From assembly GCA_000004985.1 (NCBI GenBank), contig GG738976.1: DNA of 36,632 bases. One strand, given 5' to 3'. Under the pieces are notes generated by a model. It ran no database searches. It worked only from the letters and a program-made list of their open reading frames with translations, and was not told where the DNA came from. Source of the stretch: Naegleria gruberi (lineage: Eukaryota). Shown piece by piece: positions 2,373 through 35,512 of this stretch. Position 1 is the stretch's first letter, and each line of letters begins with the position of its first letter. Both the position numbers and the translations under genes were made by a program.

Positions 2373-5300
2373 NNNNNNNNNNNNNNNNNNNNNNNNNNNN
2401 NNNNNNNNNNNNNNNNNNNNNNNNNNNNNNNNNNNNNNNNNNNNNNNNNNNNNNNNNNNNNNNNNNNNNNNNNNNNNNNNNNNNNNNNNNNNNNNNNNNN
2501 NNNNNNNNNNNNNNNNNNNNNNNNNNNNNNNNNNNNNNNNNNNNNNNNNNNNNNNNNNNNNNNNNNNNNNNNNNNNNNNNNNNNNNNNNNNNNNNNNNNN
2601 NNNNNNNNNNNNNNNNNNNNNNNNNNNNNNNNNNNNNNNNNNNNNNNNNNNNNNNNNNNNNNNNNNNNNNNNNNNNNNNNNNNNNNNNNNNNNNNNNNNN
2701 NNNNNNNNNNNNNNNNNNNNNNNNNNNNNNNNNNNNNNNNNNNNNNNNNNNNNNNNNNNNNNNNNNNNNNNNNNNNNNNNNNNNNNNNNNNNNNNNNNNN
2801 NNNNNNNNNNNNNNNNNNNNNNNNNNNNNNNNNNNNNNNNNNNNNNNNNNNNNNNNNNNNNNNNNNNNNNNNNNNNNNNNNNNNNNNNNNNNNNNNNNNN
2901 NNNNNNNNNNNNNNNNNNNNNNNNNNNNNNNNNNNNNNNNNNNNNNNNNNNNNNNNNNNNNNNNNNNNNNNNNNNNNNNNNNNNNNNNNNNNNNNNNNNN
3001 NNNNNNNNNNNNNNNNNNNNNNNNNNNNNNNNNNNNNNNNNNNNNNNNNNNNNNNNNNNNNNNNNNNNNNNNNNNNNNNNNNNNNNNNNNNNNNNNNNNN
3101 NNNNNNNNNNNNNNNNNNNNNNNNNNNNNNNNNNNNNNNNNNNNNNNNNNNNNNNNNNNNNNNNNNNNNNNNNNNNNNNNNNNNNNNNNNNNNNNNNNNN
3201 NNNNNNNNNNNNNNNNNNNNNNNNNNNNNNNNNNNNNNNNNNNNNNNNNNNNNNNNNNNNNNNNNNNNNNNNNNNNNNNNNNNNNNNNNNNNNNNNNNNN
3301 NNNNNNNNNNNNNNNNNNNNNNNNNNNNNNNNNNNNNNNNNNNNNNNNNNNNNNNNNNNNNNNNNNNNNNNNNNNNNNNNNNNNNNNNNNNNNNNNNNNN
3401 NNNNNNNNNNNNNNNNNNNNNNNNNNNNNNNNNNNNNNNNNNNNNNNNNNNNNNNNNNNNNNNNNNNNNNNNNNNNNNNNNNNNNNNNNNNNNNNNNNNN
3501 NNNNNNNNNNNNNNNNNNNNNNNNNNNNNNNNNNNNNNNNNNNNNNNNNNNNNNNNNNNNNNNNNNNNNNNNNNNNNNNNNNNNNNNNNNNNNNNNNNNN
3601 NNNNNNNNNNNNNNNNNNNNNNNNNNNNNNNNNNNNNNNNNNNNNNNNNNNNNNNNNNNNNNNNNNNNNNNNNNNNNNNNNNNNNNNNNNNNNNNNNNNN
3701 NNNNNNNNNNNNNNNNNNNNNNNNNNNNNNNNNNNNNNNNNNNNNNNNNNNNNNNNNNNNNNNNNNNNNNNNNNNNNNNNNNNNNNNNNNNNNNNNNNNN
3801 NNNNNNNNNNNNNNNNNNNNNNNNNNNNNNNNNNNNNNNNNNNNNNNNNNNNNNNNNNNNNNNNNNNNNNNNNNNNNNNNNNNNNNNNNNNNNNNNNNNN
3901 NNNNNNNNNNNNNNNNNNNNNNNNNNNNNNNNNNNNNNNNNNNNNNNNNNNNNNNNNNNNNNNNNNNNNNNNNNNNNNNNNNNNNNNNNNNNNNNNNNNN
4001 NNNNNNNNNNNNNNNNNNNNNNNNNNNNNNNNNNNNNNNNNNNNNNNNNNNNNNNNNNNNNNNNNNNNNNNNNNNNNNNNNNNNNNNNNNNNNNNNNNNN
4101 NNNNNNNNNNNNNNNNNNNNNNNNNNNNNNNNNNNNNNNNNNNNNNNNNNNNNNNNNNNNNNNNNNNNNNNNNNNNNNNNNNNNNNNNNNNNNNNNNNNN
4201 NNNNNNNNNNNNNNNNNNNNNNNNNNNNNNNNNNNNNNNNNNNNNNNNNNNNNNNNNNNNNNNNNNNNNNNNNNNNNNNNNNNNNNNNNNNNNNNNNNNN
4301 NNNNNNNNNNNNNNNNNNNNNNNNNNNNNNNNNNNNNNNNNNNNNNNNNNNNNNNNNNNNNNNNNNNNNNNNNNNNNNNNNNNNNNNNNNNNNNNNNNNN
4401 NNNNNNNNNNNNNNNNNNNNNNNNNNNNNNNNNNNNNNNNNNNNNNNNNNNNNNNNNNNNNNNNNNNNNNNNNNNNNNNNNNNNNNNNNNNNNNNNNNNN
4501 NNNNNNNNNNNNNNNNNNNNNNNNNNNNNNNNNNNNNNNNNNNNNNNNNNNNNNNNNNNNNNNNNNNNNNNNNNNNNNNNNNNNNNNNNNNNNNNNNNNN
4601 NNNNNNNNNNNNNNNNNNNNNNNNNNNNNNNNNNNNNNNNNNNNNNNNNNNNNNNNNNNNNNNNNNNNNNNNNNNNNNNNNNNNNNNNNNNNNNNNNNNN
4701 NNNNNNNNNNNNNNNNNNNNNNNNNNNNNNNNNNNNNNNNNNNNNNNNNNNNNNNNNNNNNNNNNNNNNNNNNNNNNNNNNNNNNNNNNNNNNNNNNNNN
4801 NNNNNNNNNNNNNNNNNNNNNNNNNNNNNNNNNNNNNNNNNNNNNNNNNNNNNNNNNNNNNNNNNNNNNNNNNNNNNNNNNNNNNNNNNNNNNNNNNNNN
4901 NNNNNNNNNNNNNNNNNNNNNNNNNNNNNNNNNNNNNNNNNNNNNNNNNNNNNNNNNNNNNNNNNNNNNNNNNNNNNNNNNNNNNNNNNNNNNNNNNNNN
5001 NNNNNNNNNNNNNNNNNNNNNNNNNNNNNNNNNNNNNNNNNNNNNNNNNNNNNNNNNNNNNNNNNNNNNNNNNNNNNNNNNNNNNNNNNNNNNNNNNNNN
5101 NNNNNNNNNNNNNNNNNNNNNNNNNNNNNNNNNNNNNNNNNNNNNNNNNNNNNNNNNNNNNNNNNNNNNNNNNNNNNNNNNNNNNNNNNNNNNNNNNNNN
5201 NNNNNNNNNNNNNNNNNNNNNNNNNNNNNNNNNNNNNNNNNNNNNNNNNNNNNNNNNNNNNNNNNNNNNNNNNNNNNNNNNNNNNNNNNNNNNNNNNNNN

Positions 5301-8300
5301 NNNNNNNNNNNNNNNNNNNNNNNNNNNNNNNNNNNNNNNNNNNNNNNNNNNNNNNNNNNNNNNNNNNNNNNNNNNNNNNNNNNNNNNNNNNNNNNNNNNN
5401 NNNNNNNNNNNNNNNNNNNNNNNNNNNNNNNNNNNNNNNNNNNNNNNNNNNNNNNNNNNNNNNNNNNNNNNNNNNNNNNNNNNNNNNNNNNNNNNNNNNN
5501 NNNNNNNNNNNNNNNNNNNNNNNNNNNNNNNNNNNNNNNNNNNNNNNNNNNNNNNNNNNNNNNNNNNNNNNNNNNNNNNNNNNNNNNNNNNNNNNNNNNN
5601 NNNNNNNNNNNNNNNNNNNNNNNNNNNNNNNNNNNNNNNNNNNNNNNNNNNNNNNNNNNNNNNNNNNNNNNNNNNNNNNNNNNNNNNNNNNNNNNNNNNN
5701 NNNNNNNNNNNNNNNNNNNNNNNNNNNNNNNNNNNNNNNNNNNNNNNNNNNNNNNNNNNNNNNNNNNNNNNNNNNNNNNNNNNNNNNNNNNNNNNNNNNN
5801 NNNNNNNNNNNNNNNNNNNNNNNNNNNNNNNNNNNNNNNNNNNNNNNNNNNNNNNNNNNNNNNNNNNNNNNNNNNNNNNNNNNNNNNNNNNNNNNNNNNN
5901 NNNNNNNNNNNNNNNNNNNNNNNNNNNNNNNNNNNNNNNNNNNNNNNNNNNNNNNNNNNNNNNNNNNNNNNNNNNNNNNNNNNNNNNNNNNNNNNNNNNN
6001 NNNNNNNNNNNNNNNNNNNNNNNNNNNNNNNNNNNNNNNNNNNNNNNNNNNNNNNNNNNNNNNNNNNNNNNNNNNNNNNNNNNNNNNNNNNNNNNNNNNN
6101 NNNNNNNNNNNNNNNNNNNNNNNNNNNNNNNNNNNNNNNNNNNNNNNNNNNNNNNNNNNNNNNNNNNNNNNNNNNNNNNNNNNNNNNNNNNNNNNNNNNN
6201 NNNNNNNNNNNNNNNNNNNNNNNNNNNNNNNNNNNNNNNNNNNNNNNNNNNNNNNNNNNNNNNNNNNNNNNNNNNNNNNNNNNNNNNNNNNNNNNNNNNN
6301 NNNNNNNNNNNNNNNNNNNNNNNNNNNNNNNNNNNNNNNNNNNNNNNNNNNNNNNNNNNNNNNNNNNNNNNNNNNNNNNNNNNNNNNNNNNNNNNNNNNN
6401 NNNNNNNNNNNNNNNNNNNNNNNNNNNNNNNNNNNNNNNNNNNNNNNNNNNNNNNNNNNNNNNNNNNNNNNNNNNNNNNNNNNNNNNNNNNNNNNNNNNN
6501 NNNNNNNNNNNNNNNNNNNNNNNNNNNNNNNNNNNNNNNNNNNNNNNNNNNNNNNNNNNNNNNNNNNNNNNNNNNNNNNNNNNNNNNNNNNNNNNNNNNN
6601 NNNNNNNNNNNNNNNNNNNNNNNNNNNNNNNNNNNNNNNNNNNNNNNNNNNNNNNNNNNNNNNNNNNNNNNNNNNNNNNNNNNNNNNNNNNNNNNNNNNN
6701 NNNNNNNNNNNNNNNNNNNNNNNNNNNNNNNNNNNNNNNNNNNNNNNNNNNNNNNNNNNNNNNNNNNNNNNNNNNNNNNNNNNNNNNNNNNNNNNNNNNN
6801 NNNNNNNNNNNNNNNNNNNNNNNNNNNNNNNNNNNNNNNNNNNNNNNNNNNNNNNNNNNNNNNNNNNNNNNNNNNNNNNNNNNNNNNNNNNNNNNNNNNN
6901 NNNNNNNNNNNNNNNNNNNNNNNNNNNNNNNNNNNNNNNNNNNNNNNNNNNNNNNNNNNNNNNNNNNNNNNNNNNNNNNNNNNNNNNNNNNNNNNNNNNN
7001 NNNNNNNNNNNNNNNNNNNNNNNNNNNNNNNNNNNNNNNNNNNNNNNNNNNNNNNNNNNNNNNNNNNNNNNNNNNNNNNNNNNNNNNNNNNNNNNNNNNN
7101 NNNNNNNNNNNNNNNNNNNNNNNNNNNNNNNNNNNNNNNNNNNNNNNNNNNNNNNNNNNNNNNNNNNNNNNNNNNNNNNNNNNNNNNNNNNNNNNNNNNN
7201 NNNNNNNNNNNNNNNNNNNNNNNNNNNNNNNNNNNNNNNNNNNNNNNNNNNNNNNNNNNNNNNNNNNNNNNNNNNNNNNNNNNNNNNNNNNNNNNNNNNN
7301 NNNNNNNNNNNNNNNNNNNNNNNNNNNNNNNNNNNNNNNNNNNNNNNNNNNNNNNNNNNNNNNNNNNNNNNNNNNNNNNNNNNNNNNNNNNNNNNNNNNN
7401 NNNNNNNNNNNNNNNNNNNNNNNNNNNNNNNNNNNNNNNNNNNNNNNNNNNNNNNNNNNNNNNNNNNNNNNNNNNNNNNNNNNNNNNNNNNNNNNNNNNN
7501 NNNNNNNNNNNNNNNNNNNNNNNNNNNNNNNNNNNNNNNNNNNNNNNNNNNNNNNNNNNNNNNNNNNNNNNNNNNNNNNNNNNNNNNNNNNNNNNNNNNN
7601 NNNNNNNNNNNNNNNNNNNNNNNNNNNNNNNNNNNNNNNNNNNNNNNNNNNNNNNNNNNNNNNNNNNNNNNNNNNNNNNNNNNNNNNNNNNNNNNNNNNN
7701 NNNNNNNNNNNNNNNNNNNNNNNNNNNNNNNNNNNNNNNNNNNNNNNNNNNNNNNNNNNNNNNNNNNNNNNNNNNNNNNNNNNNNNNNNNNNNNNNNNNN
7801 NNNNNNNNNNNNNNNNNNNNNNNNNNNNNNNNNNNNNNNNNNNNNNNNNNNNNNNNNNNNNNNNNNNNNNNNNNNNNNNNNNNNNNNNNNNNNNNNNNNN
7901 NNNNNNNNNNNNNNNNNNNNNNNNNNNNNNNNNNNNNNNNNNNNNNNNNNNNNNNNNNNNNNNNNNNNNNNNNNNNNNNNNNNNNNNNNNNNNNNNNNNN
8001 NNNNNNNNNNNNNNNNNNNNNNNNNNNNNNNNNNNNNNNNNNNNNNNNNNNNNNNNNNNNNNNNNNNNNNNNNNNNNNNNNNNNNNNNNNNNNNNNNNNN
8101 NNNNNNNNNNNNNNNNNNNNNNNNNNNNNNNNNNNNNNNNNNNNNNNNNNNNNNNNNNNNNNNNNNNNNNNNNNNNNNNNNNNNNNNNNNNNNNNNNNNN
8201 NNNNNNNNNNNNNNNNNNNNNNNNNNNNNNNNNNNNNNNNNNNNNNNNNNNNNNNNNNNNNNNNNNNNNNNNNNNNNNNNNNNNNNNNNNNNNNNNNNNN

Positions 8301-11300
8301 NNNNNNNNNNNNNNNNNNNNNNNNNNNNNNNNNNNNNNNNNNNNNNNNNNNNNNNNNNNNNNNNNNNNNNNNNNNNNNNNNNNNNNNNNNNNNNNNNNNN
8401 NNNNNNNNNNNNNNNNNNNNNNNNNNNNNNNNNNNNNNNNNNNNNNNNNNNNNNNNNNNNNNNNNNNNNNNNNNNNNNNNNNNNNNNNNNNNNNNNNNNN
8501 NNNNNNNNNNNNNNNNNNNNNNNNNNNNNNNNNNNNNNNNNNNNNNNNNNNNNNNNNNNNNNNNNNNNNNNNNNNNNNNNNNNNNNNNNNNNNNNNNNNN
8601 NNNNNNNNNNNNNNNNNNNNNNNNNNNNNNNNNNNNNNNNNNNNNNNNNNNNNNNNNNNNNNNNNNNNNNNNNNNNNNNNNNNNNNNNNNNNNNNNNNNN
8701 NNNNNNNNNNNNNNNNNNNNNNNNNNNNNNNNNNNNNNNNNNNNNNNNNNNNNNNNNNNNNNNNNNNNNNNNNNNNNNNNNNNNNNNNNNNNNNNNNNNN
8801 NNNNNNNNNNNNNNNNNNNNNNNNNNNNNNNNNNNNNNNNNNNNNNNNNNNNNNNNNNNNNNNNNNNNNNNNNNNNNNNNNNNNNNNNNNNNNNNNNNNN
8901 NNNNNNNNNNNNNNNNNNNNNNNNNNNNNNNNNNNNNNNNNNNNNNNNNNNNNNNNNNNNNNNNNNNNNNNNNNNNNNNNNNNNNNNNNNNNNNNNNNNN
9001 NNNNNNNNNNNNNNNNNNNNNNNNNNNNNNNNNNNNNNNNNNNNNNNNNNNNNNNNNNNNNNNNNNNNNNNNNNNNNNNNNNNNNNNNNNNNNNNNNNNN
9101 NNNNNNNNNNNNNNNNNNNNNNNNNNNNNNNNNNNNNNNNNNNNNNNNNNNNNNNNNNNNNNNNNNNNNNNNNNNNNNNNNNNNNNNNNNNNNNNNNNNN
9201 NNNNNNNNNNNNNNNNNNNNNNNNNNNNNNNNNNNNNNNNNNNNNNNNNNNNNNNNNNNNNNNNNNNNNNNNNNNNNNNNNNNNNNNNNNNNNNNNNNNN
9301 NNNNNNNNNNNNNNNNNNNNNNNNNNNNNNNNNNNNNNNNNNNNNNNNNNNNNNNNNNNNNNNNNNNNNNNNNNNNNNNNNNNNNNNNNNNNNNNNNNNN
9401 NNNNNNNNNNNNNNNNNNNNNNNNNNNNNNNNNNNNNNNNNNNNNNNNNNNNNNNNNNNNNNNNNNNNNNNNNNNNNNNNNNNNNNNNNNNNNNNNNNNN
9501 NNNNNNNNNNNNNNNNNNNNNNNNNNNNNNNNNNNNNNNNNNNNNNNNNNNNNNNNNNNNNNNNNNNNNNNNNNNNNNNNNNNNNNNNNNNNNNNNNNNN
9601 NNNNNNNNNNNNNNNNNNNNNNNNNNNNNNNNNNNNNNNNNNNNNNNNNNNNNNNNNNNNNNNNNNNNNNNNNNNNNNNNNNNNNNNNNNNNNNNNNNNN
9701 NNNNNNNNNNNNNNNNNNNNNNNNNNNNNNNNNNNNNNNNNNNNNNNNNNNNNNNNNNNNNNNNNNNNNNNNNNNNNNNNNNNNNNNNNNNNNNNNNNNN
9801 NNNNNNNNNNNNNNNNNNNNNNNNNNNNNNNNNNNNNNNNNNNNNNNNNNNNNNNNNNNNNNNNNNNNNNNNNNNNNNNNNNNNNNNNNNNNNNNNNNNN
9901 NNNNNNNNNNNNNNNNNNNNNNNNNNNNNNNNNNNNNNNNNNNNNNNNNNNNNNNNNNNNNNNNNNNNNNNNNNNNNNNNNNNNNNNNNNNNNNNNNNNN
10001 NNNNNNNNNNNNNNNNNNNNNNNNNNNNNNNNNNNNNNNNNNNNNNNNNNNNNNNNNNNNNNNNNNNNNNNNNNNNNNNNNNNNNNNNNNNNNNNNNNNN
10101 NNNNNNNNNNNNNNNNNNNNNNNNNNNNNNNNNNNNNNNNNNNNNNNNNNNNNNNNNNNNNNNNNNNNNNNNNNNNNNNNNNNNNNNNNNNNNNNNNNNN
10201 NNNNNNNNNNNNNNNNNNNNNNNNNNNNNNNNNNNNNNNNNNNNNNNNNNNNNNNNNNNNNNNNNNNNNNNNNNNNNNNNNNNNNNNNNNNNNNNNNNNN
10301 NNNNNNNNNNNNNNNNNNNNNNNNNNNNNNNNNNNNNNNNNNNNNNNNNNNNNNNNNNNNNNNNNNNNNNNNNNNNNNNNNNNNNNNNNNNNNNNNNNNN
10401 NNNNNNNNNNNNNNNNNNNNNNNNNNNNNNNNNNNNNNNNNNNNNNNNNNNNNNNNNNNNNNNNNNNNNNNNNNNNNNNNNNNNNNNNNNNNNNNNNNNN
10501 NNNNNNNNNNNNNNNNNNNNNNNNNNNNNNNNNNNNNNNNNNNNNNNNNNNNNNNNNNNNNNNNNNNNNNNNNNNNNNNNNNNNNNNNNNNNNNNNNNNN
10601 NNNNNNNNNNNNNNNNNNNNNNNNNNNNNNNNNNNNNNNNNNNNNNNNNNNNNNNNNNNNNNNNNNNNNNNNNNNNNNNNNNNNNNNNNNNNNNNNNNNN
10701 NNNNNNNNNNNNNNNNNNNNNNNNNNNNNNNNNNNNNNNNNNNNNNNNNNNNNNNNNNNNNNNNNNNNNNNNNNNNNNNNNNNNNNNNNNNNNNNNNNNN
10801 NNNNNNNNNNNNNNNNNNNNNNNNNNNNNNNNNNNNNNNNNNNNNNNNNNNNNNNNNNNNNNNNNNNNNNNNNNNNNNNNNNNNNNNNNNNNNNNNNNNN
10901 NNNNNNNNNNNNNNNNNNNNNNNNNNNNNNNNNNNNNNNNNNNNNNNNNNNNNNNNNNNNNNNNNNNNNNNNNNNNNNNNNNNNNNNNNNNNNNNNNNNN
11001 NNNNNNNNNNNNNNNNNNNNNNNNNNNNNNNNNNNNNNNNNNNNNNNNNNNNNNNNNNNNNNNNNNNNNNNNNNNNNNNNNNNNNNNNNNNNNNNNNNNN
11101 NNNNNNNNNNNNNNNNNNNNNNNNNNNNNNNNNNNNNNNNNNNNNNNNNNNNNNNNNNNNNNNNNNNNNNNNNNNNNNNNNNNNNNNNNNNNNNNNNNNN
11201 NNNNNNNNNNNNNNNNNNNNNNNNNNNNNNNNNNNNNNNNNNNNNNNNNNNNNNNNNNNNNNNNNNNNNNNNNNNNNNNNNNNNNNNNNNNNNNNNNNNN

Positions 11301-23300: not shown

Positions 23301-23307
23301 NNNNNNN
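2373..23307. other. Block of 20,935 N (assembly gap or hard mask). It hides the 3' part of the SprT gene, the 5' part of the GH1 gene and everything between them.
   Basis: Literal run of n characters. Confidence 1.
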
Positions 23308-23729: not shown

Positions 23730-23834
23730 TAAATATGAAGAATGCTTGAACTATTCAAAATTGAGAAAGAAAACCGCAGGATGGAATGAATGGGAATTTT
23801 GCTCAAATGTAGCCAGATACTACTATTCAATATA

Positions 23835-24050: not shown

Positions 24051-24168
24051 CTGTGAATTGGTTTTGAAAATAATTCCCTCACTTATTGATCCTTGTCCTC
24101 TCTAATATATTTGAGATGAGAGAAATAAATTACTTTCCACATTTCACAAAGCTACAGAGTAAACTTAC
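24051..24168 (-). other. Putative 118-nt intron on the minus strand (GTAAGTTTAC...CAATTCACAG).
   Basis: It has a canonical GTAAGT donor and a CAG acceptor. The frame is continuous across the junction. Confidence 0.45.
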
Positions 24169-24678
24169 CTCACAATCGAAAGGTTTCACCATGCTCAATC
24201 TCTTATAAATTTTCACACATTCTCCATATTGAATAGTCGAAGCAAGAATTAAAGTGTTATCAAAATAAACATCAGGTTGATTGAGATATAAAACAGTCCT
24301 ATCCTTCAAATATTCATTGCAATATTTCAAGAATATTGATCTATTAATCTCTTTTCCAATGTGGCGAATTTTAATCTTATTCGAAAATAATAATGACATG
24401 ATATCTGAATCTAAACTATTGTCAATTTGAAGTAAATGATATTCCGAAACTGATGGATTCAATAAATTCATCTGTATGCTCGTTAATAAATCAAGGAAAA
24501 ACACATTATCTTTATCCGAAAGTCCAACAATTAATTGTGAAACAATCACAACATTCGGTAATTCACTAATTTCATCATTTCTAATTAATTTCACAAATTC
24601 CAATTGTTGTTTTTGTGCTATTTTCATAAAATCACCATATTCATTCGAATTATATAGCCTTTGTCTTGAAAATGGCAC
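24169..24678 (-). CDS. Internal or penultimate exon of the same unidentified gene, giving 170 aa visible. It continues 5' into the N block.
   Basis: The minus-frame ORF is stop-free: VPFSRQRLYNSNEYGDFMKIAQKQQLEFVKLIRNDEISELPNVVIVSQLIVGLSDKDNVFFLDLL...IQYGECVKIYKRLSMVKPFDCE. It has ordinary non-repetitive globular composition. I recognise no family. Confidence 0.55.
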
Positions 24679-27600
24679 NNNNNNNNNNNNNNNNNNNNNN
24701 NNNNNNNNNNNNNNNNNNNNNNNNNNNNNNNNNNNNNNNNNNNNNNNNNNNNNNNNNNNNNNNNNNNNNNNNNNNNNNNNNNNNNNNNNNNNNNNNNNNN
24801 NNNNNNNNNNNNNNNNNNNNNNNNNNNNNNNNNNNNNNNNNNNNNNNNNNNNNNNNNNNNNNNNNNNNNNNNNNNNNNNNNNNNNNNNNNNNNNNNNNNN
24901 NNNNNNNNNNNNNNNNNNNNNNNNNNNNNNNNNNNNNNNNNNNNNNNNNNNNNNNNNNNNNNNNNNNNNNNNNNNNNNNNNNNNNNNNNNNNNNNNNNNN
25001 NNNNNNNNNNNNNNNNNNNNNNNNNNNNNNNNNNNNNNNNNNNNNNNNNNNNNNNNNNNNNNNNNNNNNNNNNNNNNNNNNNNNNNNNNNNNNNNNNNNN
25101 NNNNNNNNNNNNNNNNNNNNNNNNNNNNNNNNNNNNNNNNNNNNNNNNNNNNNNNNNNNNNNNNNNNNNNNNNNNNNNNNNNNNNNNNNNNNNNNNNNNN
25201 NNNNNNNNNNNNNNNNNNNNNNNNNNNNNNNNNNNNNNNNNNNNNNNNNNNNNNNNNNNNNNNNNNNNNNNNNNNNNNNNNNNNNNNNNNNNNNNNNNNN
25301 NNNNNNNNNNNNNNNNNNNNNNNNNNNNNNNNNNNNNNNNNNNNNNNNNNNNNNNNNNNNNNNNNNNNNNNNNNNNNNNNNNNNNNNNNNNNNNNNNNNN
25401 NNNNNNNNNNNNNNNNNNNNNNNNNNNNNNNNNNNNNNNNNNNNNNNNNNNNNNNNNNNNNNNNNNNNNNNNNNNNNNNNNNNNNNNNNNNNNNNNNNNN
25501 NNNNNNNNNNNNNNNNNNNNNNNNNNNNNNNNNNNNNNNNNNNNNNNNNNNNNNNNNNNNNNNNNNNNNNNNNNNNNNNNNNNNNNNNNNNNNNNNNNNN
25601 NNNNNNNNNNNNNNNNNNNNNNNNNNNNNNNNNNNNNNNNNNNNNNNNNNNNNNNNNNNNNNNNNNNNNNNNNNNNNNNNNNNNNNNNNNNNNNNNNNNN
25701 NNNNNNNNNNNNNNNNNNNNNNNNNNNNNNNNNNNNNNNNNNNNNNNNNNNNNNNNNNNNNNNNNNNNNNNNNNNNNNNNNNNNNNNNNNNNNNNNNNNN
25801 NNNNNNNNNNNNNNNNNNNNNNNNNNNNNNNNNNNNNNNNNNNNNNNNNNNNNNNNNNNNNNNNNNNNNNNNNNNNNNNNNNNNNNNNNNNNNNNNNNNN
25901 NNNNNNNNNNNNNNNNNNNNNNNNNNNNNNNNNNNNNNNNNNNNNNNNNNNNNNNNNNNNNNNNNNNNNNNNNNNNNNNNNNNNNNNNNNNNNNNNNNNN
26001 NNNNNNNNNNNNNNNNNNNNNNNNNNNNNNNNNNNNNNNNNNNNNNNNNNNNNNNNNNNNNNNNNNNNNNNNNNNNNNNNNNNNNNNNNNNNNNNNNNNN
26101 NNNNNNNNNNNNNNNNNNNNNNNNNNNNNNNNNNNNNNNNNNNNNNNNNNNNNNNNNNNNNNNNNNNNNNNNNNNNNNNNNNNNNNNNNNNNNNNNNNNN
26201 NNNNNNNNNNNNNNNNNNNNNNNNNNNNNNNNNNNNNNNNNNNNNNNNNNNNNNNNNNNNNNNNNNNNNNNNNNNNNNNNNNNNNNNNNNNNNNNNNNNN
26301 NNNNNNNNNNNNNNNNNNNNNNNNNNNNNNNNNNNNNNNNNNNNNNNNNNNNNNNNNNNNNNNNNNNNNNNNNNNNNNNNNNNNNNNNNNNNNNNNNNNN
26401 NNNNNNNNNNNNNNNNNNNNNNNNNNNNNNNNNNNNNNNNNNNNNNNNNNNNNNNNNNNNNNNNNNNNNNNNNNNNNNNNNNNNNNNNNNNNNNNNNNNN
26501 NNNNNNNNNNNNNNNNNNNNNNNNNNNNNNNNNNNNNNNNNNNNNNNNNNNNNNNNNNNNNNNNNNNNNNNNNNNNNNNNNNNNNNNNNNNNNNNNNNNN
26601 NNNNNNNNNNNNNNNNNNNNNNNNNNNNNNNNNNNNNNNNNNNNNNNNNNNNNNNNNNNNNNNNNNNNNNNNNNNNNNNNNNNNNNNNNNNNNNNNNNNN
26701 NNNNNNNNNNNNNNNNNNNNNNNNNNNNNNNNNNNNNNNNNNNNNNNNNNNNNNNNNNNNNNNNNNNNNNNNNNNNNNNNNNNNNNNNNNNNNNNNNNNN
26801 NNNNNNNNNNNNNNNNNNNNNNNNNNNNNNNNNNNNNNNNNNNNNNNNNNNNNNNNNNNNNNNNNNNNNNNNNNNNNNNNNNNNNNNNNNNNNNNNNNNN
26901 NNNNNNNNNNNNNNNNNNNNNNNNNNNNNNNNNNNNNNNNNNNNNNNNNNNNNNNNNNNNNNNNNNNNNNNNNNNNNNNNNNNNNNNNNNNNNNNNNNNN
27001 NNNNNNNNNNNNNNNNNNNNNNNNNNNNNNNNNNNNNNNNNNNNNNNNNNNNNNNNNNNNNNNNNNNNNNNNNNNNNNNNNNNNNNNNNNNNNNNNNNNN
27101 NNNNNNNNNNNNNNNNNNNNNNNNNNNNNNNNNNNNNNNNNNNNNNNNNNNNNNNNNNNNNNNNNNNNNNNNNNNNNNNNNNNNNNNNNNNNNNNNNNNN
27201 NNNNNNNNNNNNNNNNNNNNNNNNNNNNNNNNNNNNNNNNNNNNNNNNNNNNNNNNNNNNNNNNNNNNNNNNNNNNNNNNNNNNNNNNNNNNNNNNNNNN
27301 NNNNNNNNNNNNNNNNNNNNNNNNNNNNNNNNNNNNNNNNNNNNNNNNNNNNNNNNNNNNNNNNNNNNNNNNNNNNNNNNNNNNNNNNNNNNNNNNNNNN
27401 NNNNNNNNNNNNNNNNNNNNNNNNNNNNNNNNNNNNNNNNNNNNNNNNNNNNNNNNNNNNNNNNNNNNNNNNNNNNNNNNNNNNNNNNNNNNNNNNNNNN
27501 NNNNNNNNNNNNNNNNNNNNNNNNNNNNNNNNNNNNNNNNNNNNNNNNNNNNNNNNNNNNNNNNNNNNNNNNNNNNNNNNNNNNNNNNNNNNNNNNNNNN

Positions 27601-29009
27601 NNNNNNNNNNNNNNNNNNNNNNNNNNNNNNNNNNNNNNNNNNNNNNNNNNNNNNNNNNNNNNNNNNNNNNNNNNNNNNNNNNNNNNNNNNNNNNNNNNNN
27701 NNNNNNNNNNNNNNNNNNNNNNNNNNNNNNNNNNNNNNNNNNNNNNNNNNNNNNNNNNNNNNNNNNNNNNNNNNNNNNNNNNNNNNNNNNNNNNNNNNNN
27801 NNNNNNNNNNNNNNNNNNNNNNNNNNNNNNNNNNNNNNNNNNNNNNNNNNNNNNNNNNNNNNNNNNNNNNNNNNNNNNNNNNNNNNNNNNNNNNNNNNNN
27901 NNNNNNNNNNNNNNNNNNNNNNNNNNNNNNNNNNNNNNNNNNNNNNNNNNNNNNNNNNNNNNNNNNNNNNNNNNNNNNNNNNNNNNNNNNNNNNNNNNNN
28001 NNNNNNNNNNNNNNNNNNNNNNNNNNNNNNNNNNNNNNNNNNNNNNNNNNNNNNNNNNNNNNNNNNNNNNNNNNNNNNNNNNNNNNNNNNNNNNNNNNNN
28101 NNNNNNNNNNNNNNNNNNNNNNNNNNNNNNNNNNNNNNNNNNNNNNNNNNNNNNNNNNNNNNNNNNNNNNNNNNNNNNNNNNNNNNNNNNNNNNNNNNNN
28201 NNNNNNNNNNNNNNNNNNNNNNNNNNNNNNNNNNNNNNNNNNNNNNNNNNNNNNNNNNNNNNNNNNNNNNNNNNNNNNNNNNNNNNNNNNNNNNNNNNNN
28301 NNNNNNNNNNNNNNNNNNNNNNNNNNNNNNNNNNNNNNNNNNNNNNNNNNNNNNNNNNNNNNNNNNNNNNNNNNNNNNNNNNNNNNNNNNNNNNNNNNNN
28401 NNNNNNNNNNNNNNNNNNNNNNNNNNNNNNNNNNNNNNNNNNNNNNNNNNNNNNNNNNNNNNNNNNNNNNNNNNNNNNNNNNNNNNNNNNNNNNNNNNNN
28501 NNNNNNNNNNNNNNNNNNNNNNNNNNNNNNNNNNNNNNNNNNNNNNNNNNNNNNNNNNNNNNNNNNNNNNNNNNNNNNNNNNNNNNNNNNNNNNNNNNNN
28601 NNNNNNNNNNNNNNNNNNNNNNNNNNNNNNNNNNNNNNNNNNNNNNNNNNNNNNNNNNNNNNNNNNNNNNNNNNNNNNNNNNNNNNNNNNNNNNNNNNNN
28701 NNNNNNNNNNNNNNNNNNNNNNNNNNNNNNNNNNNNNNNNNNNNNNNNNNNNNNNNNNNNNNNNNNNNNNNNNNNNNNNNNNNNNNNNNNNNNNNNNNNN
28801 NNNNNNNNNNNNNNNNNNNNNNNNNNNNNNNNNNNNNNNNNNNNNNNNNNNNNNNNNNNNNNNNNNNNNNNNNNNNNNNNNNNNNNNNNNNNNNNNNNNN
28901 NNNNNNNNNNNNNNNNNNNNNNNNNNNNNNNNNNNNNNNNNNNNNNNNNNNNNNNNNNNNNNNNNNNNNNNNNNNNNNNNNNNNNNNNNNNNNNNNNNNN
29001 NNNNNNNNN
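24679..29009. other. Block of 4,331 N. It hides the upstream exons of the minus-strand gene.
   Basis: Literal run of n characters. Confidence 1.
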
Positions 29010-29227: not shown

Positions 29228-29845
29228 ATGTCACAACAACAAAAAGCTATTTCAGGATCATCTTCCAACACCAATGCAAATATCAAAAAAACAAATTCCA
29301 AAGAGAATCGCCACGTATTCCTCACAGAAAAGGAACAACTCGAACAATATGGAAGAATTGTTGAACATGAAGAAATATCATGTGGTATTTTGCTTTTTAG
29401 AAAATTGACTTCTAAATATGATTTCCTTTTAATGAAACACAGTCGTAGACTTGATTTACCAAAAGGGAGAATGGAACCTGGTGAAACATTTATTGAAACT
29501 GCAAAGAGAGAATTCAATGAAGAGACTTCTATTCCATTGGATCTGATTGGGATTCATCCAGATTTTCTATTCGAAGAAAAGTATGCTTACTTTTCTAAAT
29601 CAAAATCTATTCAAGTTGGAAAAACTCTAAAAATGTATATTGCATTTGCCAAGGACAGTACCAAGCTGAATATTAAATTGACAGAGCATGGTGATTGTAA
29701 ATGGACTCAATTCAAGGAAAAGGAAGCCATGACCATTCAGAATAATACAATTGATCCTCTCTTGAAAAGTATTCAGGACTATATGAATGAGAAGGGATTG
29801 GATTTGGAAGCATTGGAAAAGACCAGTTTATCATCAAATATTTAA
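29228..29845 (+). CDS. NUDT2: Nudix hydrolase, of the diadenosine tetraphosphate (Ap4A) hydrolase / NUDT2-like type. It is intronless and encodes 205 aa.
   Basis: It has a canonical Nudix box, GRMEPGETFIETAKREFNEETSI (G-x5-E-x7-R-E-hydrophobic-x-E-E-x-x-hydrophobic). The segment SCGILLFRK...DFLLMKH...LPKGRMEPGE parallels NUDT2 ACGLIIFRR...EFLLLQ...PPKGHVEPGE. The C-terminal CKWTQFKEKEAMTIQ parallels NUDT2 YRWLGLEEACQLAQ. The start context is ctaaaaaATGtc and the stop is TAA. Confidence 0.85.
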   Translation: MSQQQKAISGSSSNTNANIKKTNSKENRHVFLTEKEQLEQYGRIVEHEEISCGILLFRKLTSKYDFLLMKHSRRLDLPKGRMEPGETFIETAKREFNEETSIPLDLIGIHPDFLFEEKYAYFSKSKSIQVGKTLKMYIAFAKDSTKLNIKLTEHGDCKWTQFKEKEAMTIQNNTIDPLLKSIQDYMNEKGLDLEALEKTSLSSNI

Positions 29846-30667: not shown

Positions 30668-31201
30668 ATGCCAAAACAGCTAGTGTGTCAAAATAGAGAA
30701 GAATCTGCCGTTGGAACTACTTTATCAATGGATAGAGTCGCAATCAACCAATCTTCTCAAAGACCAAATAGTAAACCAGCAACAGCATCACATAGATTGG
30801 GATCCTTTGCATTTCAACCTTATCAATTGTTCAATCCGACTCCCTATGCAACAAAACACAAGGCAACTGATTGTTGTGATGATGTTATCAGTAACGGATC
30901 CAATCATTCAAAATCTTCCGATTCTAAGGAACTACCAATCAATTTGATGACTAGTAACAACAAGGTGGAGAGAATGTCTATCTGTAACGTATCATCTGAA
31001 ACTAGGCAATTACCAAACAGCAAACCATTGTCTCCTCCATCATCGTCATCATCATTAGCAGTTCAAAAGACTTGTCATCCACCAATTACAACTATTACTC
31101 ATGTACCATCACCTGTAACAACTAATGTTGCATTATCTCGTTCTACCCACCACCTAGGCTCTAGTCAACCAAACAGTGTTGTACCACAAATCAAACTACC
31201 A
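30668..31201 (+). CDS. Start of a Ser/Thr/Pro-rich, low-complexity, probably disordered protein. This is the first ATG in a frame that stays open for 607 nt and runs into the N block.
   Basis: MPKQLVCQNREESAVGTTLSMDRVAINQSSQRPNSKPATASHRLGSF...PPSSSSSLAVQKTCHPPITTITHVPSPVTTNVALSRSTHHLGSSQPNSVVPQIKLP. The start context is aaaacaaATGcc. The 'M' shown at 30596 in the ORF track is a TTG codon. Confidence 0.3.
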
Positions 31202-34200
31202 NNNNNNNNNNNNNNNNNNNNNNNNNNNNNNNNNNNNNNNNNNNNNNNNNNNNNNNNNNNNNNNNNNNNNNNNNNNNNNNNNNNNNNNNNNNNNNNNNNN
31301 NNNNNNNNNNNNNNNNNNNNNNNNNNNNNNNNNNNNNNNNNNNNNNNNNNNNNNNNNNNNNNNNNNNNNNNNNNNNNNNNNNNNNNNNNNNNNNNNNNNN
31401 NNNNNNNNNNNNNNNNNNNNNNNNNNNNNNNNNNNNNNNNNNNNNNNNNNNNNNNNNNNNNNNNNNNNNNNNNNNNNNNNNNNNNNNNNNNNNNNNNNNN
31501 NNNNNNNNNNNNNNNNNNNNNNNNNNNNNNNNNNNNNNNNNNNNNNNNNNNNNNNNNNNNNNNNNNNNNNNNNNNNNNNNNNNNNNNNNNNNNNNNNNNN
31601 NNNNNNNNNNNNNNNNNNNNNNNNNNNNNNNNNNNNNNNNNNNNNNNNNNNNNNNNNNNNNNNNNNNNNNNNNNNNNNNNNNNNNNNNNNNNNNNNNNNN
31701 NNNNNNNNNNNNNNNNNNNNNNNNNNNNNNNNNNNNNNNNNNNNNNNNNNNNNNNNNNNNNNNNNNNNNNNNNNNNNNNNNNNNNNNNNNNNNNNNNNNN
31801 NNNNNNNNNNNNNNNNNNNNNNNNNNNNNNNNNNNNNNNNNNNNNNNNNNNNNNNNNNNNNNNNNNNNNNNNNNNNNNNNNNNNNNNNNNNNNNNNNNNN
31901 NNNNNNNNNNNNNNNNNNNNNNNNNNNNNNNNNNNNNNNNNNNNNNNNNNNNNNNNNNNNNNNNNNNNNNNNNNNNNNNNNNNNNNNNNNNNNNNNNNNN
32001 NNNNNNNNNNNNNNNNNNNNNNNNNNNNNNNNNNNNNNNNNNNNNNNNNNNNNNNNNNNNNNNNNNNNNNNNNNNNNNNNNNNNNNNNNNNNNNNNNNNN
32101 NNNNNNNNNNNNNNNNNNNNNNNNNNNNNNNNNNNNNNNNNNNNNNNNNNNNNNNNNNNNNNNNNNNNNNNNNNNNNNNNNNNNNNNNNNNNNNNNNNNN
32201 NNNNNNNNNNNNNNNNNNNNNNNNNNNNNNNNNNNNNNNNNNNNNNNNNNNNNNNNNNNNNNNNNNNNNNNNNNNNNNNNNNNNNNNNNNNNNNNNNNNN
32301 NNNNNNNNNNNNNNNNNNNNNNNNNNNNNNNNNNNNNNNNNNNNNNNNNNNNNNNNNNNNNNNNNNNNNNNNNNNNNNNNNNNNNNNNNNNNNNNNNNNN
32401 NNNNNNNNNNNNNNNNNNNNNNNNNNNNNNNNNNNNNNNNNNNNNNNNNNNNNNNNNNNNNNNNNNNNNNNNNNNNNNNNNNNNNNNNNNNNNNNNNNNN
32501 NNNNNNNNNNNNNNNNNNNNNNNNNNNNNNNNNNNNNNNNNNNNNNNNNNNNNNNNNNNNNNNNNNNNNNNNNNNNNNNNNNNNNNNNNNNNNNNNNNNN
32601 NNNNNNNNNNNNNNNNNNNNNNNNNNNNNNNNNNNNNNNNNNNNNNNNNNNNNNNNNNNNNNNNNNNNNNNNNNNNNNNNNNNNNNNNNNNNNNNNNNNN
32701 NNNNNNNNNNNNNNNNNNNNNNNNNNNNNNNNNNNNNNNNNNNNNNNNNNNNNNNNNNNNNNNNNNNNNNNNNNNNNNNNNNNNNNNNNNNNNNNNNNNN
32801 NNNNNNNNNNNNNNNNNNNNNNNNNNNNNNNNNNNNNNNNNNNNNNNNNNNNNNNNNNNNNNNNNNNNNNNNNNNNNNNNNNNNNNNNNNNNNNNNNNNN
32901 NNNNNNNNNNNNNNNNNNNNNNNNNNNNNNNNNNNNNNNNNNNNNNNNNNNNNNNNNNNNNNNNNNNNNNNNNNNNNNNNNNNNNNNNNNNNNNNNNNNN
33001 NNNNNNNNNNNNNNNNNNNNNNNNNNNNNNNNNNNNNNNNNNNNNNNNNNNNNNNNNNNNNNNNNNNNNNNNNNNNNNNNNNNNNNNNNNNNNNNNNNNN
33101 NNNNNNNNNNNNNNNNNNNNNNNNNNNNNNNNNNNNNNNNNNNNNNNNNNNNNNNNNNNNNNNNNNNNNNNNNNNNNNNNNNNNNNNNNNNNNNNNNNNN
33201 NNNNNNNNNNNNNNNNNNNNNNNNNNNNNNNNNNNNNNNNNNNNNNNNNNNNNNNNNNNNNNNNNNNNNNNNNNNNNNNNNNNNNNNNNNNNNNNNNNNN
33301 NNNNNNNNNNNNNNNNNNNNNNNNNNNNNNNNNNNNNNNNNNNNNNNNNNNNNNNNNNNNNNNNNNNNNNNNNNNNNNNNNNNNNNNNNNNNNNNNNNNN
33401 NNNNNNNNNNNNNNNNNNNNNNNNNNNNNNNNNNNNNNNNNNNNNNNNNNNNNNNNNNNNNNNNNNNNNNNNNNNNNNNNNNNNNNNNNNNNNNNNNNNN
33501 NNNNNNNNNNNNNNNNNNNNNNNNNNNNNNNNNNNNNNNNNNNNNNNNNNNNNNNNNNNNNNNNNNNNNNNNNNNNNNNNNNNNNNNNNNNNNNNNNNNN
33601 NNNNNNNNNNNNNNNNNNNNNNNNNNNNNNNNNNNNNNNNNNNNNNNNNNNNNNNNNNNNNNNNNNNNNNNNNNNNNNNNNNNNNNNNNNNNNNNNNNNN
33701 NNNNNNNNNNNNNNNNNNNNNNNNNNNNNNNNNNNNNNNNNNNNNNNNNNNNNNNNNNNNNNNNNNNNNNNNNNNNNNNNNNNNNNNNNNNNNNNNNNNN
33801 NNNNNNNNNNNNNNNNNNNNNNNNNNNNNNNNNNNNNNNNNNNNNNNNNNNNNNNNNNNNNNNNNNNNNNNNNNNNNNNNNNNNNNNNNNNNNNNNNNNN
33901 NNNNNNNNNNNNNNNNNNNNNNNNNNNNNNNNNNNNNNNNNNNNNNNNNNNNNNNNNNNNNNNNNNNNNNNNNNNNNNNNNNNNNNNNNNNNNNNNNNNN
34001 NNNNNNNNNNNNNNNNNNNNNNNNNNNNNNNNNNNNNNNNNNNNNNNNNNNNNNNNNNNNNNNNNNNNNNNNNNNNNNNNNNNNNNNNNNNNNNNNNNNN
34101 NNNNNNNNNNNNNNNNNNNNNNNNNNNNNNNNNNNNNNNNNNNNNNNNNNNNNNNNNNNNNNNNNNNNNNNNNNNNNNNNNNNNNNNNNNNNNNNNNNNN

Positions 34201-35512
34201 NNNNNNNNNNNNNNNNNNNNNNNNNNNNNNNNNNNNNNNNNNNNNNNNNNNNNNNNNNNNNNNNNNNNNNNNNNNNNNNNNNNNNNNNNNNNNNNNNNNN
34301 NNNNNNNNNNNNNNNNNNNNNNNNNNNNNNNNNNNNNNNNNNNNNNNNNNNNNNNNNNNNNNNNNNNNNNNNNNNNNNNNNNNNNNNNNNNNNNNNNNNN
34401 NNNNNNNNNNNNNNNNNNNNNNNNNNNNNNNNNNNNNNNNNNNNNNNNNNNNNNNNNNNNNNNNNNNNNNNNNNNNNNNNNNNNNNNNNNNNNNNNNNNN
34501 NNNNNNNNNNNNNNNNNNNNNNNNNNNNNNNNNNNNNNNNNNNNNNNNNNNNNNNNNNNNNNNNNNNNNNNNNNNNNNNNNNNNNNNNNNNNNNNNNNNN
34601 NNNNNNNNNNNNNNNNNNNNNNNNNNNNNNNNNNNNNNNNNNNNNNNNNNNNNNNNNNNNNNNNNNNNNNNNNNNNNNNNNNNNNNNNNNNNNNNNNNNN
34701 NNNNNNNNNNNNNNNNNNNNNNNNNNNNNNNNNNNNNNNNNNNNNNNNNNNNNNNNNNNNNNNNNNNNNNNNNNNNNNNNNNNNNNNNNNNNNNNNNNNN
34801 NNNNNNNNNNNNNNNNNNNNNNNNNNNNNNNNNNNNNNNNNNNNNNNNNNNNNNNNNNNNNNNNNNNNNNNNNNNNNNNNNNNNNNNNNNNNNNNNNNNN
34901 NNNNNNNNNNNNNNNNNNNNNNNNNNNNNNNNNNNNNNNNNNNNNNNNNNNNNNNNNNNNNNNNNNNNNNNNNNNNNNNNNNNNNNNNNNNNNNNNNNNN
35001 NNNNNNNNNNNNNNNNNNNNNNNNNNNNNNNNNNNNNNNNNNNNNNNNNNNNNNNNNNNNNNNNNNNNNNNNNNNNNNNNNNNNNNNNNNNNNNNNNNNN
35101 NNNNNNNNNNNNNNNNNNNNNNNNNNNNNNNNNNNNNNNNNNNNNNNNNNNNNNNNNNNNNNNNNNNNNNNNNNNNNNNNNNNNNNNNNNNNNNNNNNNN
35201 NNNNNNNNNNNNNNNNNNNNNNNNNNNNNNNNNNNNNNNNNNNNNNNNNNNNNNNNNNNNNNNNNNNNNNNNNNNNNNNNNNNNNNNNNNNNNNNNNNNN
35301 NNNNNNNNNNNNNNNNNNNNNNNNNNNNNNNNNNNNNNNNNNNNNNNNNNNNNNNNNNNNNNNNNNNNNNNNNNNNNNNNNNNNNNNNNNNNNNNNNNNN
35401 NNNNNNNNNNNNNNNNNNNNNNNNNNNNNNNNNNNNNNNNNNNNNNNNNNNNNNNNNNNNNNNNNNNNNNNNNNNNNNNNNNNNNNNNNNNNNNNNNNNN
35501 NNNNNNNNNNNN
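31202..35512. other. Block of 4,311 N.
   Basis: Literal run of n characters. Confidence 1.

What the first reader, a model, noticed from the sequence alone, without database searches (positions are those of the whole stretch)
2373..35512. 81% of the window is hard N, so any novel system would have to lie in unreadable sequence
The three N blocks (20,935, 4,331 and 4,311 nt) interrupt at least four reading frames mid-exon: SprT at 2372, GH1 at 23308, the minus-strand gene at 24678 and the S/T-rich ORF at 31201. At the gene density seen in the readable islands (about one gene per 1-1.5 kb), the 20.9-kb block alone could hide of the order of ten genes. The visible 7 kb contains only ordinary eukaryotic housekeeping-type genes. 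I can neither confirm nor exclude anything unusual inside the gaps.
Basis: seen in the sequence. Interest (0 to 1): 0.5.

Follow-up and report, generated by a model that had tools for sequence, protein, structure and literature searches.

The report
Assembly gaps in Naegleria gruberi scaffold
The window is a whole small, gap-riddled scaffold of the published Naegleria gruberi (amoeba) genome, and its three N runs are ordinary sequencing gaps whose content is represented by a near-identical, fully sequenced and annotated copy on a large scaffold of the same assembly, so nothing unusual is indicated.

Summary
There are three N runs (20,935, 4,331 and 4,311 nt) that make up 80.7% of the window, and long reading frames abut four of the six gap edges.

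The window can be identified. Its only complete intron-less gene (NUDIX, 29228-29845) is residue-for-residue Naegleria gruberi NEG-M protein EFC35945/NAEGRDRAFT_76393. That protein's contig length on record is 36,632 bp, which is the window length.

Every other readable gene has a 96-100% identical counterpart in the same assembly:
- SprT, GH1, a two-exon minus-strand gene, NUDIX and the S/T-rich protein all lie on one 413,107-bp scaffold, in an accession order matching the window.
- The left-end gene lies on a 218,836-bp scaffold.

On the 36.6-kb scaffold, only genes that lie wholly inside readable islands carry gene models. The genes cut by N have none there, although their counterparts on the large scaffold are annotated. 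So the Ns were most likely already in the deposited record. They are scaffold gaps in a low-coverage, redundant (most likely second-haplotype) scaffold of a Sanger assembly, not a mask over something special.

Near-identical metagenome contigs run 1.1-1.2 kb into two gaps and show only the expected continuation of GH1 and the S/T-rich gene.

Verdict: an assembly artefact, with very low interest.

The parts
1..351 (-). 5' part of a gene that runs off the left end of the scaffold. It encodes the first 117 aa of N. gruberi NAEGRDRAFT_53838 (EFC37219, 437 aa).
   Evidence: The translation is an exact substring of P0163, which sits on a different scaffold of 218,836 bp. It is 97% identical to the ENA protein P0123, and contig L007 matches it at 98.0% DNA identity.
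888..1430 (-). NHL-repeat-like reading frame split by one in-frame TGA at 1134-1136 (ORFs 1134-1430 and 888-1115). No gene model was found for it.
   Evidence: Weak Pfam NHL hit, E 0.0015, below the cut-off. The two ORFs share a frame. No homologue was returned.
1649..2372 (+). N-terminal 241 codons of a SprT-like (SPRTN-type) gene, cut by gap 1.
   Evidence: Pfam SprT-like profile 3-43/108. 236/246 identical, with in-frame indels in Ser/Asn runs, to N. gruberi NAEGRDRAFT_49599 (P0121, 509 aa, 413,107-bp scaffold).
2373..23307 (.). Scaffold gap 1 (20,935 N). The sister scaffold implies it covers the last ~264 codons of SprT, about 11 gene models (inferred from accession numbers), and the first ~408 codons of GH1.
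   Evidence: ENA contig L006 extends 1,093 nt into the right end and carries the GH1 coding sequence.
23308..23622 (+). C-terminal 103-104 codons plus stop of a family-1 glycoside hydrolase (beta-glucosidase).
   Evidence: Pfam GH1, E 4e-34, profile 356-449/453. Exact substring of N. gruberi EFC43609 (P0161, 512 aa, 413-kb scaffold).
23835..24678 (-). Two-exon gene of unknown function. Exon 1 is 24627-24169, the intron is 24168-24102 (67 nt, GTAAGT...TAG), and exon 2 is 24101-23835. The frame stays open from 24627 to the gap edge at 24678.
   Evidence: The spliced translation equals P0170 (EFC43701/NAEGRDRAFT_68369, 241 aa, 413-kb scaffold) exactly. The model on this scaffold, P0166 (EFC35946/NAEGRDRAFT_76392, 189 aa, contig 36,632), is its C-terminal part. 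No Pfam family.
24679..29009 (.). Scaffold gap 2 (4,331 N).
   Evidence: UniProt accession order on the sister scaffold leaves four numbers between the minus-strand gene (D2VHL6) and NUDIX (D2VHM1) (inference).
29228..29845 (+). Complete NUDIX hydrolase gene (Ap4A-hydrolase-like, 205 aa). It equals N. gruberi EFC35945/XP_002668689/NAEGRDRAFT_76393, and it is the gene that identifies the scaffold.
   Evidence: Pfam NUDIX, E 3.8e-12. The translation is identical to P0159, whose contig length is 36,632. The counterpart P0160 on the 413-kb scaffold is 99% identical.
30668..31201 (+). First 178 codons of a Ser/Thr-rich predicted protein, cut by gap 3 (the ORF is open from 30596).
   Evidence: 178/178 identical to N. 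gruberi EFC43612/NAEGRDRAFT_58240 (P0157, 341 aa, 413-kb scaffold). ENA contig L001 continues the ORF for 164 more codons.
31202..35512 (.). Scaffold gap 3 (4,311 N). Its first ~494 nt correspond to the end of the S/T-rich gene.
   Evidence: L001 covers the equivalent of the first 1,234 nt.
36139..36632 (+). 5' part of a protein-kinase gene with spliceosomal introns. Exon 1 is 36139-36205, the intron is 36206-36331, exon 2 is 36332-36543, and a second intron starts at 36544 (GTAAGT). The gene runs off the right end.
   Evidence: Pfam Pkinase profile 20-79/263, 30.8 bits, just under the 31.7 cut-off, on the fragment. Exon and intron boundaries were read from the sequence by eye, not computed. 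The spliced product reads GSGAEGLVYLVEEKSTNKLFAIK.

Best explanation
The window is one complete small scaffold (36,632 bp) of the Sanger whole-genome assembly of the free-living amoeba Naegleria gruberi strain NEG-M. It consists of four short sequence contigs (1.1-2.4 kb) held together only by clone-end links. The three N runs are the assembler's size estimates for the unsequenced stretches between them.

The scaffold is redundant. The same genes, 96-100% identical at protein level, occur on a 413,107-bp scaffold of the same assembly, in an accession order consistent with the window's gene order (positions could not be read). The window is therefore most likely the second haplotype of a heterozygous region, made of leftover reads that did not merge.

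The hidden sequence is therefore expected to be the allelic version of already annotated, ordinary amoeba genes. By accession numbering that is the rest of SprT, about 11 gene models and most of GH1 in block 1, about 4 models in block 2, and the end of the S/T-rich gene plus the region upstream of a kinase gene in block 3.

Shown here: the identity of the scaffold, the duplicated gene series, and the lack of gene models across the N runs.
Inferred: haplotype status, gene counts, and the origin of the gap sizes.
For: 1. Identity of the scaffold. The window's NUDIX ORF is identical to N. gruberi EFC35945/NAEGRDRAFT_76393, recorded on a contig of 36,632 bp, which is the window length. A second model on the same 36,632-bp contig (EFC35946, 189 aa) is encoded at 23835-24471 and is a suffix of P0170, to which the window's spliced translation is identical.

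2. Counterparts on the 413,107-bp scaffold:
- SprT, EFC43604, 96%
- GH1, EFC43609, fragment 100%
- minus-strand gene, EFC43701, 241/241
- NUDIX, EFC43611, 99%
- S/T-rich protein, EFC43612, 178/178
The UniProt order D2VHK3 < D2VHL5 < D2VHL6 < D2VHM1 < D2VHM2 equals the window order.

3. The Ns pre-date annotation.
- The SprT cluster has a single member. The GH1 and S/T-rich proteins are each recorded on one contig only, the 413-kb scaffold.
- On this scaffold the NUDIX model (EFC35945, plus strand) lies downstream of the minus-strand gene (EFC35946) yet has the lower number, so plus-strand genes appear to be numbered first.
- That leaves no number for the plus-strand S/T-rich gene, which on the big scaffold is annotated directly after NUDIX.

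4. What lies under the N edges. Near-identical contigs of an ENA metagenome (97.6-98.3% DNA identity) cross two edges and show plain continuation of coding sequence, not repeats. There are no tandem repeats at the island edges.

5. Differences from the sister copy are substitutions and in-frame indels, so they are real alleles and not read errors. Heterozygosity in NEG-M and Sanger sequencing are reported in PMC9928731. The published 33% GC and 1.7 exons per gene match the window (PMC8296547).

6. Geometry fits clone-end scaffolding. The total of 36.6 kb is about a fosmid insert. Island 2 start to island 3 end is 7,894 bp, and island 3 start to island 4 end is 7,623 bp, about an 8-kb plasmid insert. 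The library sizes are from my own knowledge of JGI Sanger projects, not from a tool.
Against: - I could not read the GenBank/AGP record or any N. gruberi DNA. N. gruberi genes are not in the position index. Gap features and true distances on the 413-kb scaffold are therefore unverified.
- The 'no gene model across N' argument rests on cluster membership, contig counts and accession adjacency. The word-indexed homologue search is not exhaustive: one search missed EFC35946 and EFC43701, which one search found.
- The left-end gene matches a gene on a different scaffold (218,836 bp). The region is therefore not simply one haplotype of one scaffold.
- Haplotype versus recent segmental duplication cannot be separated without read depth.
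- Four gene models in a 4.3-kb gap (block 2) is dense. Either the accession-order inference or the gap estimate is imprecise.
Confidence: 0.88

Rival explanations
1. The N runs are a hard mask laid over real, fully sequenced DNA, either by a repeat masker, by a contamination screen, or by whoever prepared the window. Under this reading the scaffold is really 36.6 kb of known sequence.
For: The tool description for one collection says that 'a few stretches are masked and read as runs of N'. The island edges are high-quality sequence with no rise in differences towards the edges. The N lengths are not round numbers.
Against: - Genes cut by the N runs have no gene model on this scaffold, although their counterparts are annotated on the 413-kb scaffold.
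- The only two models recorded on the 36,632-bp contig lie inside readable islands, and one of them is N-terminally shortened next to a gap.
- Contigs from a near-identical strain show unique coding sequence, not repeats, under two edges.
- Two blocks differ by only 20 nt (4,331 vs 4,311). This is expected for gap estimates from one clone library but not for masking of unrelated sequence.
Confidence: 0.05
2. The scaffold is a recent segmental duplication (a paralogous copy) of the 413-kb region, or a chimeric mis-join of leftover reads, rather than the second haplotype. In that case the gap sizes and hidden content need not mirror the sister region.
For: - The left-end gene matches a gene on a third scaffold of 218,836 bp.
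- Divergence is patchy: 0% in four genes, about 1% in NUDIX and about 4% in SprT.
- Links in such small Sanger scaffolds rest on very few clones (inference).
Against: - Five genes have an accession order that matches the window's gene order and, as far as the numbering reveals strand, the same orientation.
- Heterozygosity is reported for NEG-M (PMC9928731).
- The third-scaffold match is equally explained if the 218-kb and 413-kb scaffolds are neighbours that this scaffold bridges.
Confidence: 0.1

Closest known systems
Estimated-size scaffold gaps in Sanger-era paired-end (clone-end) whole-genome assemblies
   Same: - Runs of N with non-round, library-dependent lengths lie between short contigs.
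- The total span is about one fosmid insert, and the sub-spans are about an 8-kb plasmid insert.
- Genes are truncated at arbitrary positions.
- Annotation is restricted to the sequenced islands.
   Different: Nothing found here differs. The gap (AGP) records themselves could not be inspected.
Unmerged second-haplotype ('haplotig') scaffolds in assemblies of heterozygous eukaryotes
   Same: A small, low-coverage scaffold duplicates the gene series of a large scaffold at 96-100% protein identity. The differences are substitutions and in-frame indels in low-complexity runs.
   Different: One end matches a third scaffold of 218,836 bp. The scaffold may therefore also span a junction that the main assembly left open. 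Allelic status was not tested by read depth.
Hard-masked interspersed repeats (RepeatMasker-type N masking)
   Same: Long runs of N replace sequence.
   Different: The flanks are unique coding sequence. A near-identical strain shows ordinary genes continuing under the N edges. No gene models exist there in the deposited annotation.

Membership tests
True assembly (scaffold) gap | The stretch is an uninterrupted run of N and nothing else, within a record whose total length includes the Ns. | tested here: met
   There are three pure N runs. The N. gruberi contig that carries the window's NUDIX protein is recorded as 36,632 bp, which is the window length including the Ns.
True assembly (scaffold) gap | The Ns were present when the record was annotated, so no gene model crosses them and the genes they cut are missing or shortened. 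| tested here: met
   - Only EFC35945 (NUDIX) and EFC35946 (189 aa, versus 241 aa for its counterpart) are recorded on the 36,632-bp contig.
- No second N. gruberi model exists for SprT, GH1 or the S/T-rich protein: cluster sizes and contig counts are 1.
- No accession number is left for a plus-strand gene after NUDIX.
The evidence is indirect.
True assembly (scaffold) gap | Gap features are present in the deposited record or AGP file. | not testable with these tools
   No tool gives the GenBank record. N. gruberi loci could not be fetched.
Hard-masked repeat | The masked sequence is repetitive, and the mask edges coincide with repeat boundaries. | tested here: not met
   Contigs L001 and L006 (97.6-98.3% identical) continue as single-copy coding sequence across edges 31201 and 23308. 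No tandem repeats lie at the island edges.
Second-haplotype scaffold | The same genes occur elsewhere in the same assembly, in the same order, at near-identity. | tested here: met
   Five genes lie on the 413,107-bp scaffold at 96-100% identity. GenBank and UniProt accession orders are consistent with the window order. Order is inferred from accession numbering, not from coordinates.
Second-haplotype scaffold | Each copy has half of the genome-wide read depth, and a phased assembly shows a single locus. | not testable with these tools
   No reads and no N. gruberi DNA are available.
Glycoside hydrolase family 1 (gene at 23308-23622) | Match to the family profile above the curated cut-off. | tested here: met
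   PF00232, 118 bits against a cut-off of 22.6, for the C-terminal part only. The fragment is identical to the end of the 512-aa N. gruberi GH1.
SprT-like / SPRTN metalloprotease (gene at 1649-2372) | Profile match above the cut-off, and the HExxH metal site. | tested here: inconclusive
   The readable fragment scores 20.6 bits, below the 25.6 cut-off, and stops before the HEMIH motif. The 96%-identical full-length counterpart P0121 carries PF10263 and PF22934 and the motif HEMIH.
NUDIX hydrolase (29228-29845) | Profile match above the curated cut-off. | tested here: met
   PF00293, 46.8 bits against a cut-off of 21.1. Sources name the cluster members bis(5'-nucleosyl)-tetraphosphatase.

The most novel reading that the evidence does not exclude
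One of the gaps, most plausibly the 20.9-kb one, hides a haplotype-specific structural difference from the 413-kb scaffold. Examples would be a mobile element, a viral or bacterial insertion, or a gene-content polymorphism. Such a difference could be the reason these reads did not merge with the main scaffold. Nothing seen here points to it. It is simply not excluded, because neither the hidden bases nor the sister scaffold's coordinates could be read.
Probability: 0.04. Interest if true: 0.3.

Novelty: not a real feature. Interest (0 to 1): 0.03.

Why it matters
It matters only as housekeeping. Windows like this one, small gap-dominated and redundant scaffolds of old Sanger assemblies, can be recognised and dropped from a scan. 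Their 'hidden' content should be looked up on the sister scaffold rather than treated as unknown.

Two minor practical points follow:
- The scaffold may link two large N. gruberi scaffolds (218,836 bp and 413,107 bp).
- Duplicated gene models such as NAEGRDRAFT_76393/49610 and 76392/68369 are likely alleles that inflate gene counts.

Tried and rejected
1. Giant-virus or bacterial origin. I considered this because the DNA is AT-rich and gene-dense. I rejected it because of the spliceosomal introns and the exact matches to N. gruberi proteins.

2. Finding the source record by an exact 53-mer. There were no matches in genome contigs, viral contigs or metagenome contigs.

3. Fetching N. gruberi DNA around NUDIX, SprT or the S/T-rich gene. 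None of them is on record in the position index. Gap lengths could therefore not be compared with real distances.

4. Inferring hidden genes from synteny with N. fowleri and N. lovaniensis (loci L003, L004, L008, L009). Only the query genes match; no neighbour is shared, and GH1 is inverted relative to NUDIX in N. lovaniensis. These species are not usable as proxies.

5. Looking for low-quality contig ends. Differences from near-identical contigs are spread evenly. They are substitutions, or indels that fall in non-coding DNA or are in-frame. This test is uninformative for gap versus mask.

6. tRNA and Rfam scans of the window and L001 found nothing.

7. Literature. The 2010 genome paper is not held. 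Searches for the UniProt accessions of the intervening genes found nothing.

8. My early reading that a plus-strand gene ends at 29072 was dropped. The 20-codon open frame there is at chance level.
Full report
**Observation.** One search confirms the three N runs at exactly the stated coordinates: 2373-23307 (20,935 nt), 24679-29009 (4,331 nt) and 31202-35512 (4,311 nt). Together they are 29,577 N, or 80.7% of the 36,632-base window. Four readable islands remain, of 2,372, 1,371, 2,192 and 1,120 nt, with GC 0.30-0.34.

One search measured the reading frames that abut the gaps.
- They are 257, 104, 182 and 229 codons at edges 2372, 23308, 24678 and 31201.
- With a 6.5% stop-codon frequency in the readable DNA, each is unlikely by chance (corrected P between 1.7e-7 and 5e-3).
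- The two remaining edges (29010 and 35513) have nothing above chance.

Pfam identifies:
- a truncated SprT-like domain (profile 3-43 of 108)
- the C-terminal fifth of a family-1 glycoside hydrolase (profile 356-449 of 453, E 4e-34)
- a complete NUDIX gene
- the start of a protein kinase
- a weak NHL repeat

**What the DNA is.** An exact 53-mer from the window is absent from the three searchable DNA collections. Protein searches placed it.
- The NUDIX protein's best named relatives are Naegleria lovaniensis, N. fowleri and Willaertia, at 50-54% identity. One unnamed ENA hit is 99% identical.
- The SprT fragment is 96% identical to N. gruberi NAEGRDRAFT_49599.
- The S/T-rich fragment is 178/178 identical to N. 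gruberi NAEGRDRAFT_58240.
- Both of those proteins sit on a 413,107-bp contig.

Listing the members of the 90% clusters settled the source. The window's NUDIX ORF is identical to N. gruberi NEG-M EFC35945 / XP_002668689 / NAEGRDRAFT_76393 (verified). That protein is recorded on a contig of 36,632 bp, which is the length of the window. The window is thus one entire small scaffold of the published N. gruberi assembly.

The literature held here describes that assembly as Sanger-sequenced, 41 Mb, 33-35% GC, about 15,700 genes and 1.7 exons per gene, with heterozygosity reported by the genome authors (PMC9928731; PMC8296547). The window fits this description.
- The minus-strand gene has a 67-nt GTAAGT...TAG intron.
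- The kinase gene appears to be split by a GT..AG intron at 36206-36331 and to enter a second one at 36544. I read these boundaries from the sequence by eye.

**The scaffold is redundant.** Every readable gene has a near-identical twin elsewhere in the same assembly.

| Gene in the window | Twin | Scaffold | Identity to window |
|---|---|---|---|
| SprT | EFC43604 | 413,107 bp | 96%, with in-frame indels in Ser/Asn runs |
| GH1 | EFC43609, 512 aa | 413,107 bp | fragment 100% |
| Two-exon minus-strand gene | EFC43701, 241 aa | 413,107 bp | spliced translation 100% |
| NUDIX | EFC43611 | 413,107 bp | 99% |
| S/T-rich protein | EFC43612 | 413,107 bp | fragment 100% |
| Left-end gene | EFC37219 | 218,836 bp | first 117 aa 100% |

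The UniProt accessions run D2VHK3, D2VHL5, D2VHL6, D2VHM1, D2VHM2. This is the order of the genes in the window, including the two adjacencies GH1 / minus-strand gene and NUDIX / S/T-rich gene.

The simplest reading is that the window is the unmerged second haplotype of that region. A recent duplication cannot be excluded without read depth.

**Gap or mask?** Three lines of indirect evidence say the Ns were already in the deposited record.

1. Only two gene models are recorded on the 36,632-bp contig.
   - Both lie inside readable islands.
   - They are NUDIX (EFC35945) and the minus-strand gene (EFC35946).
   - The latter model is 189 aa, against 241 aa for its twin, although the window encodes all 241.

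2. The genes that the Ns cut have no second N. gruberi model.
   - The SprT cluster has one member.
   - The GH1 and S/T-rich proteins are each seen on one contig only.
   - On this scaffold the plus-strand NUDIX gene has the lower accession number although it lies downstream of the minus-strand gene, so plus-strand genes appear to be numbered first.
   - The consecutive numbers EFC35945 and EFC35946 therefore leave no room for the plus-strand S/T-rich gene.
   - On the big scaffold that gene is annotated directly after NUDIX.

3. What lies beneath the edges is ordinary.
   - Three MEGAHIT contigs from one ENA metagenome (ERZ929261, PRJEB11402) are 97.6-98.3% identical to the window.
   - L001 runs 1,234 nt into gap 3 and simply completes the S/T-rich ORF, 366 aa in total.
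   - L006 runs 1,093 nt into the right end of gap 1 and carries the GH1 coding sequence.
   - No tandem repeats lie at the island edges.

The geometry also looks like clone-end scaffolding.
- The whole scaffold is one fosmid insert long.
- Island 2 to island 3 spans 7.9 kb and island 3 to island 4 spans 7.6 kb, like 8-kb plasmid inserts.
- This would explain why two gaps differ by only 20 nt.
- The library sizes are my own recollection of JGI practice and were not checked.

**What is probably hidden.** By the sister scaffold:
- Gap 1 should hold the last ~264 codons of SprT, including the HEMIH metal site seen in P0121. It should also hold the first ~408 codons of GH1, and whatever lies between.
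- The UniProt numbering leaves 11 accessions between SprT and GH1, and 4 between the minus-strand gene and NUDIX.
- The GenBank numbering for plus-strand genes leaves 4 and 1 respectively.

I could not name these genes.
- N. gruberi loci cannot be fetched.
- The accession numbers are not mentioned in the searchable literature.
- N. fowleri and N. lovaniensis share no neighbours with this region beyond the query genes themselves.

**Qualification on one of the four 'interrupted' frames.** The annotated start of the minus-strand gene (window 24627) is 51 nt inside island 2. However, the frame is open to the edge. The 17 residues upstream of that start are about 70% identical (my count) to a 75%-identical homologue from a Logan assembly that begins 22 residues further upstream. 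The true start is therefore probably inside gap 2.

**Verdict.** The scaffold is a gap-dominated, redundant piece of a published eukaryotic genome. Its readable genes are ordinary and already annotated. Its unreadable parts have a sequenced, annotated counterpart. Interest is very low.

The only residual possibility is a haplotype-specific insertion inside a gap. There is no evidence for it, and I put it at about 4%.

Noticed in passing
window 1-381 (minus strand): The left-end gene is 100% identical (117 aa) to NAEGRDRAFT_53838. That gene is recorded on a 218,836-bp scaffold, whereas all other genes of the window have their twins on the 413,107-bp scaffold. This small scaffold may bridge two large N. 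gruberi scaffolds, or it may be a mis-join.
   Followed up: partly
window 888-1430 (minus strand), TGA at 1134-1136: An NHL-repeat-like frame is split by a single in-frame TGA. The 81 codons after it stay open in the same frame, which has about a 0.4% chance at the local stop frequency. Possible causes are a read error in low-coverage Sanger sequence, a nonsense allele, an intron or a recoded codon. No N. gruberi gene model was found for it.
   Followed up: no
window 23835-24627 vs gene models EFC35946 (189 aa) and EFC43701 (241 aa): The same coding sequence received two different gene models on the two scaffolds, with the one next to the gap starting at an internal Met. Both models may be too short at the N-terminus, because homologues are conserved upstream of the annotated start. 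The family has no Pfam domain. Its only relatives found are a few Naegleria-like proteins and a paralogue, NAEGRDRAFT_71840.
   Followed up: partly
L001, L006, L007 (ENA ERZ929261, PRJEB11402): A metagenome contains an N. gruberi-complex strain 97.6-98.3% identical in DNA to NEG-M across this region. Indels relative to the window are confined to non-coding DNA or are in-frame.
   Followed up: partly
L006 1470-1729: The end of this MEGAHIT contig is the reverse complement of window 23555-23819 and overlaps the part it already covers in forward orientation. This is a fold-back (inverted duplication), most likely an assembly artefact of that contig.
   Followed up: no
window 30394-30427: An 11-nt tandem repeat (AGATAATCAGT, about 3 copies) lies in the NUDIX / S/T-rich intergenic region. 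It is 13 nt longer in the window than in the ENA strain, so it is a small length polymorphism.
   Followed up: no
vs 53 (method): The word-indexed homologue search with a concatenated query missed the 100%-identical N. gruberi proteins EFC35946 and EFC43701, which the exhaustive phmmer search found. In addition, named N. gruberi proteins were hidden as non-representative members of clusters headed by unnamed ENA proteins. Absence from that search is therefore weak evidence.
   Followed up: yes
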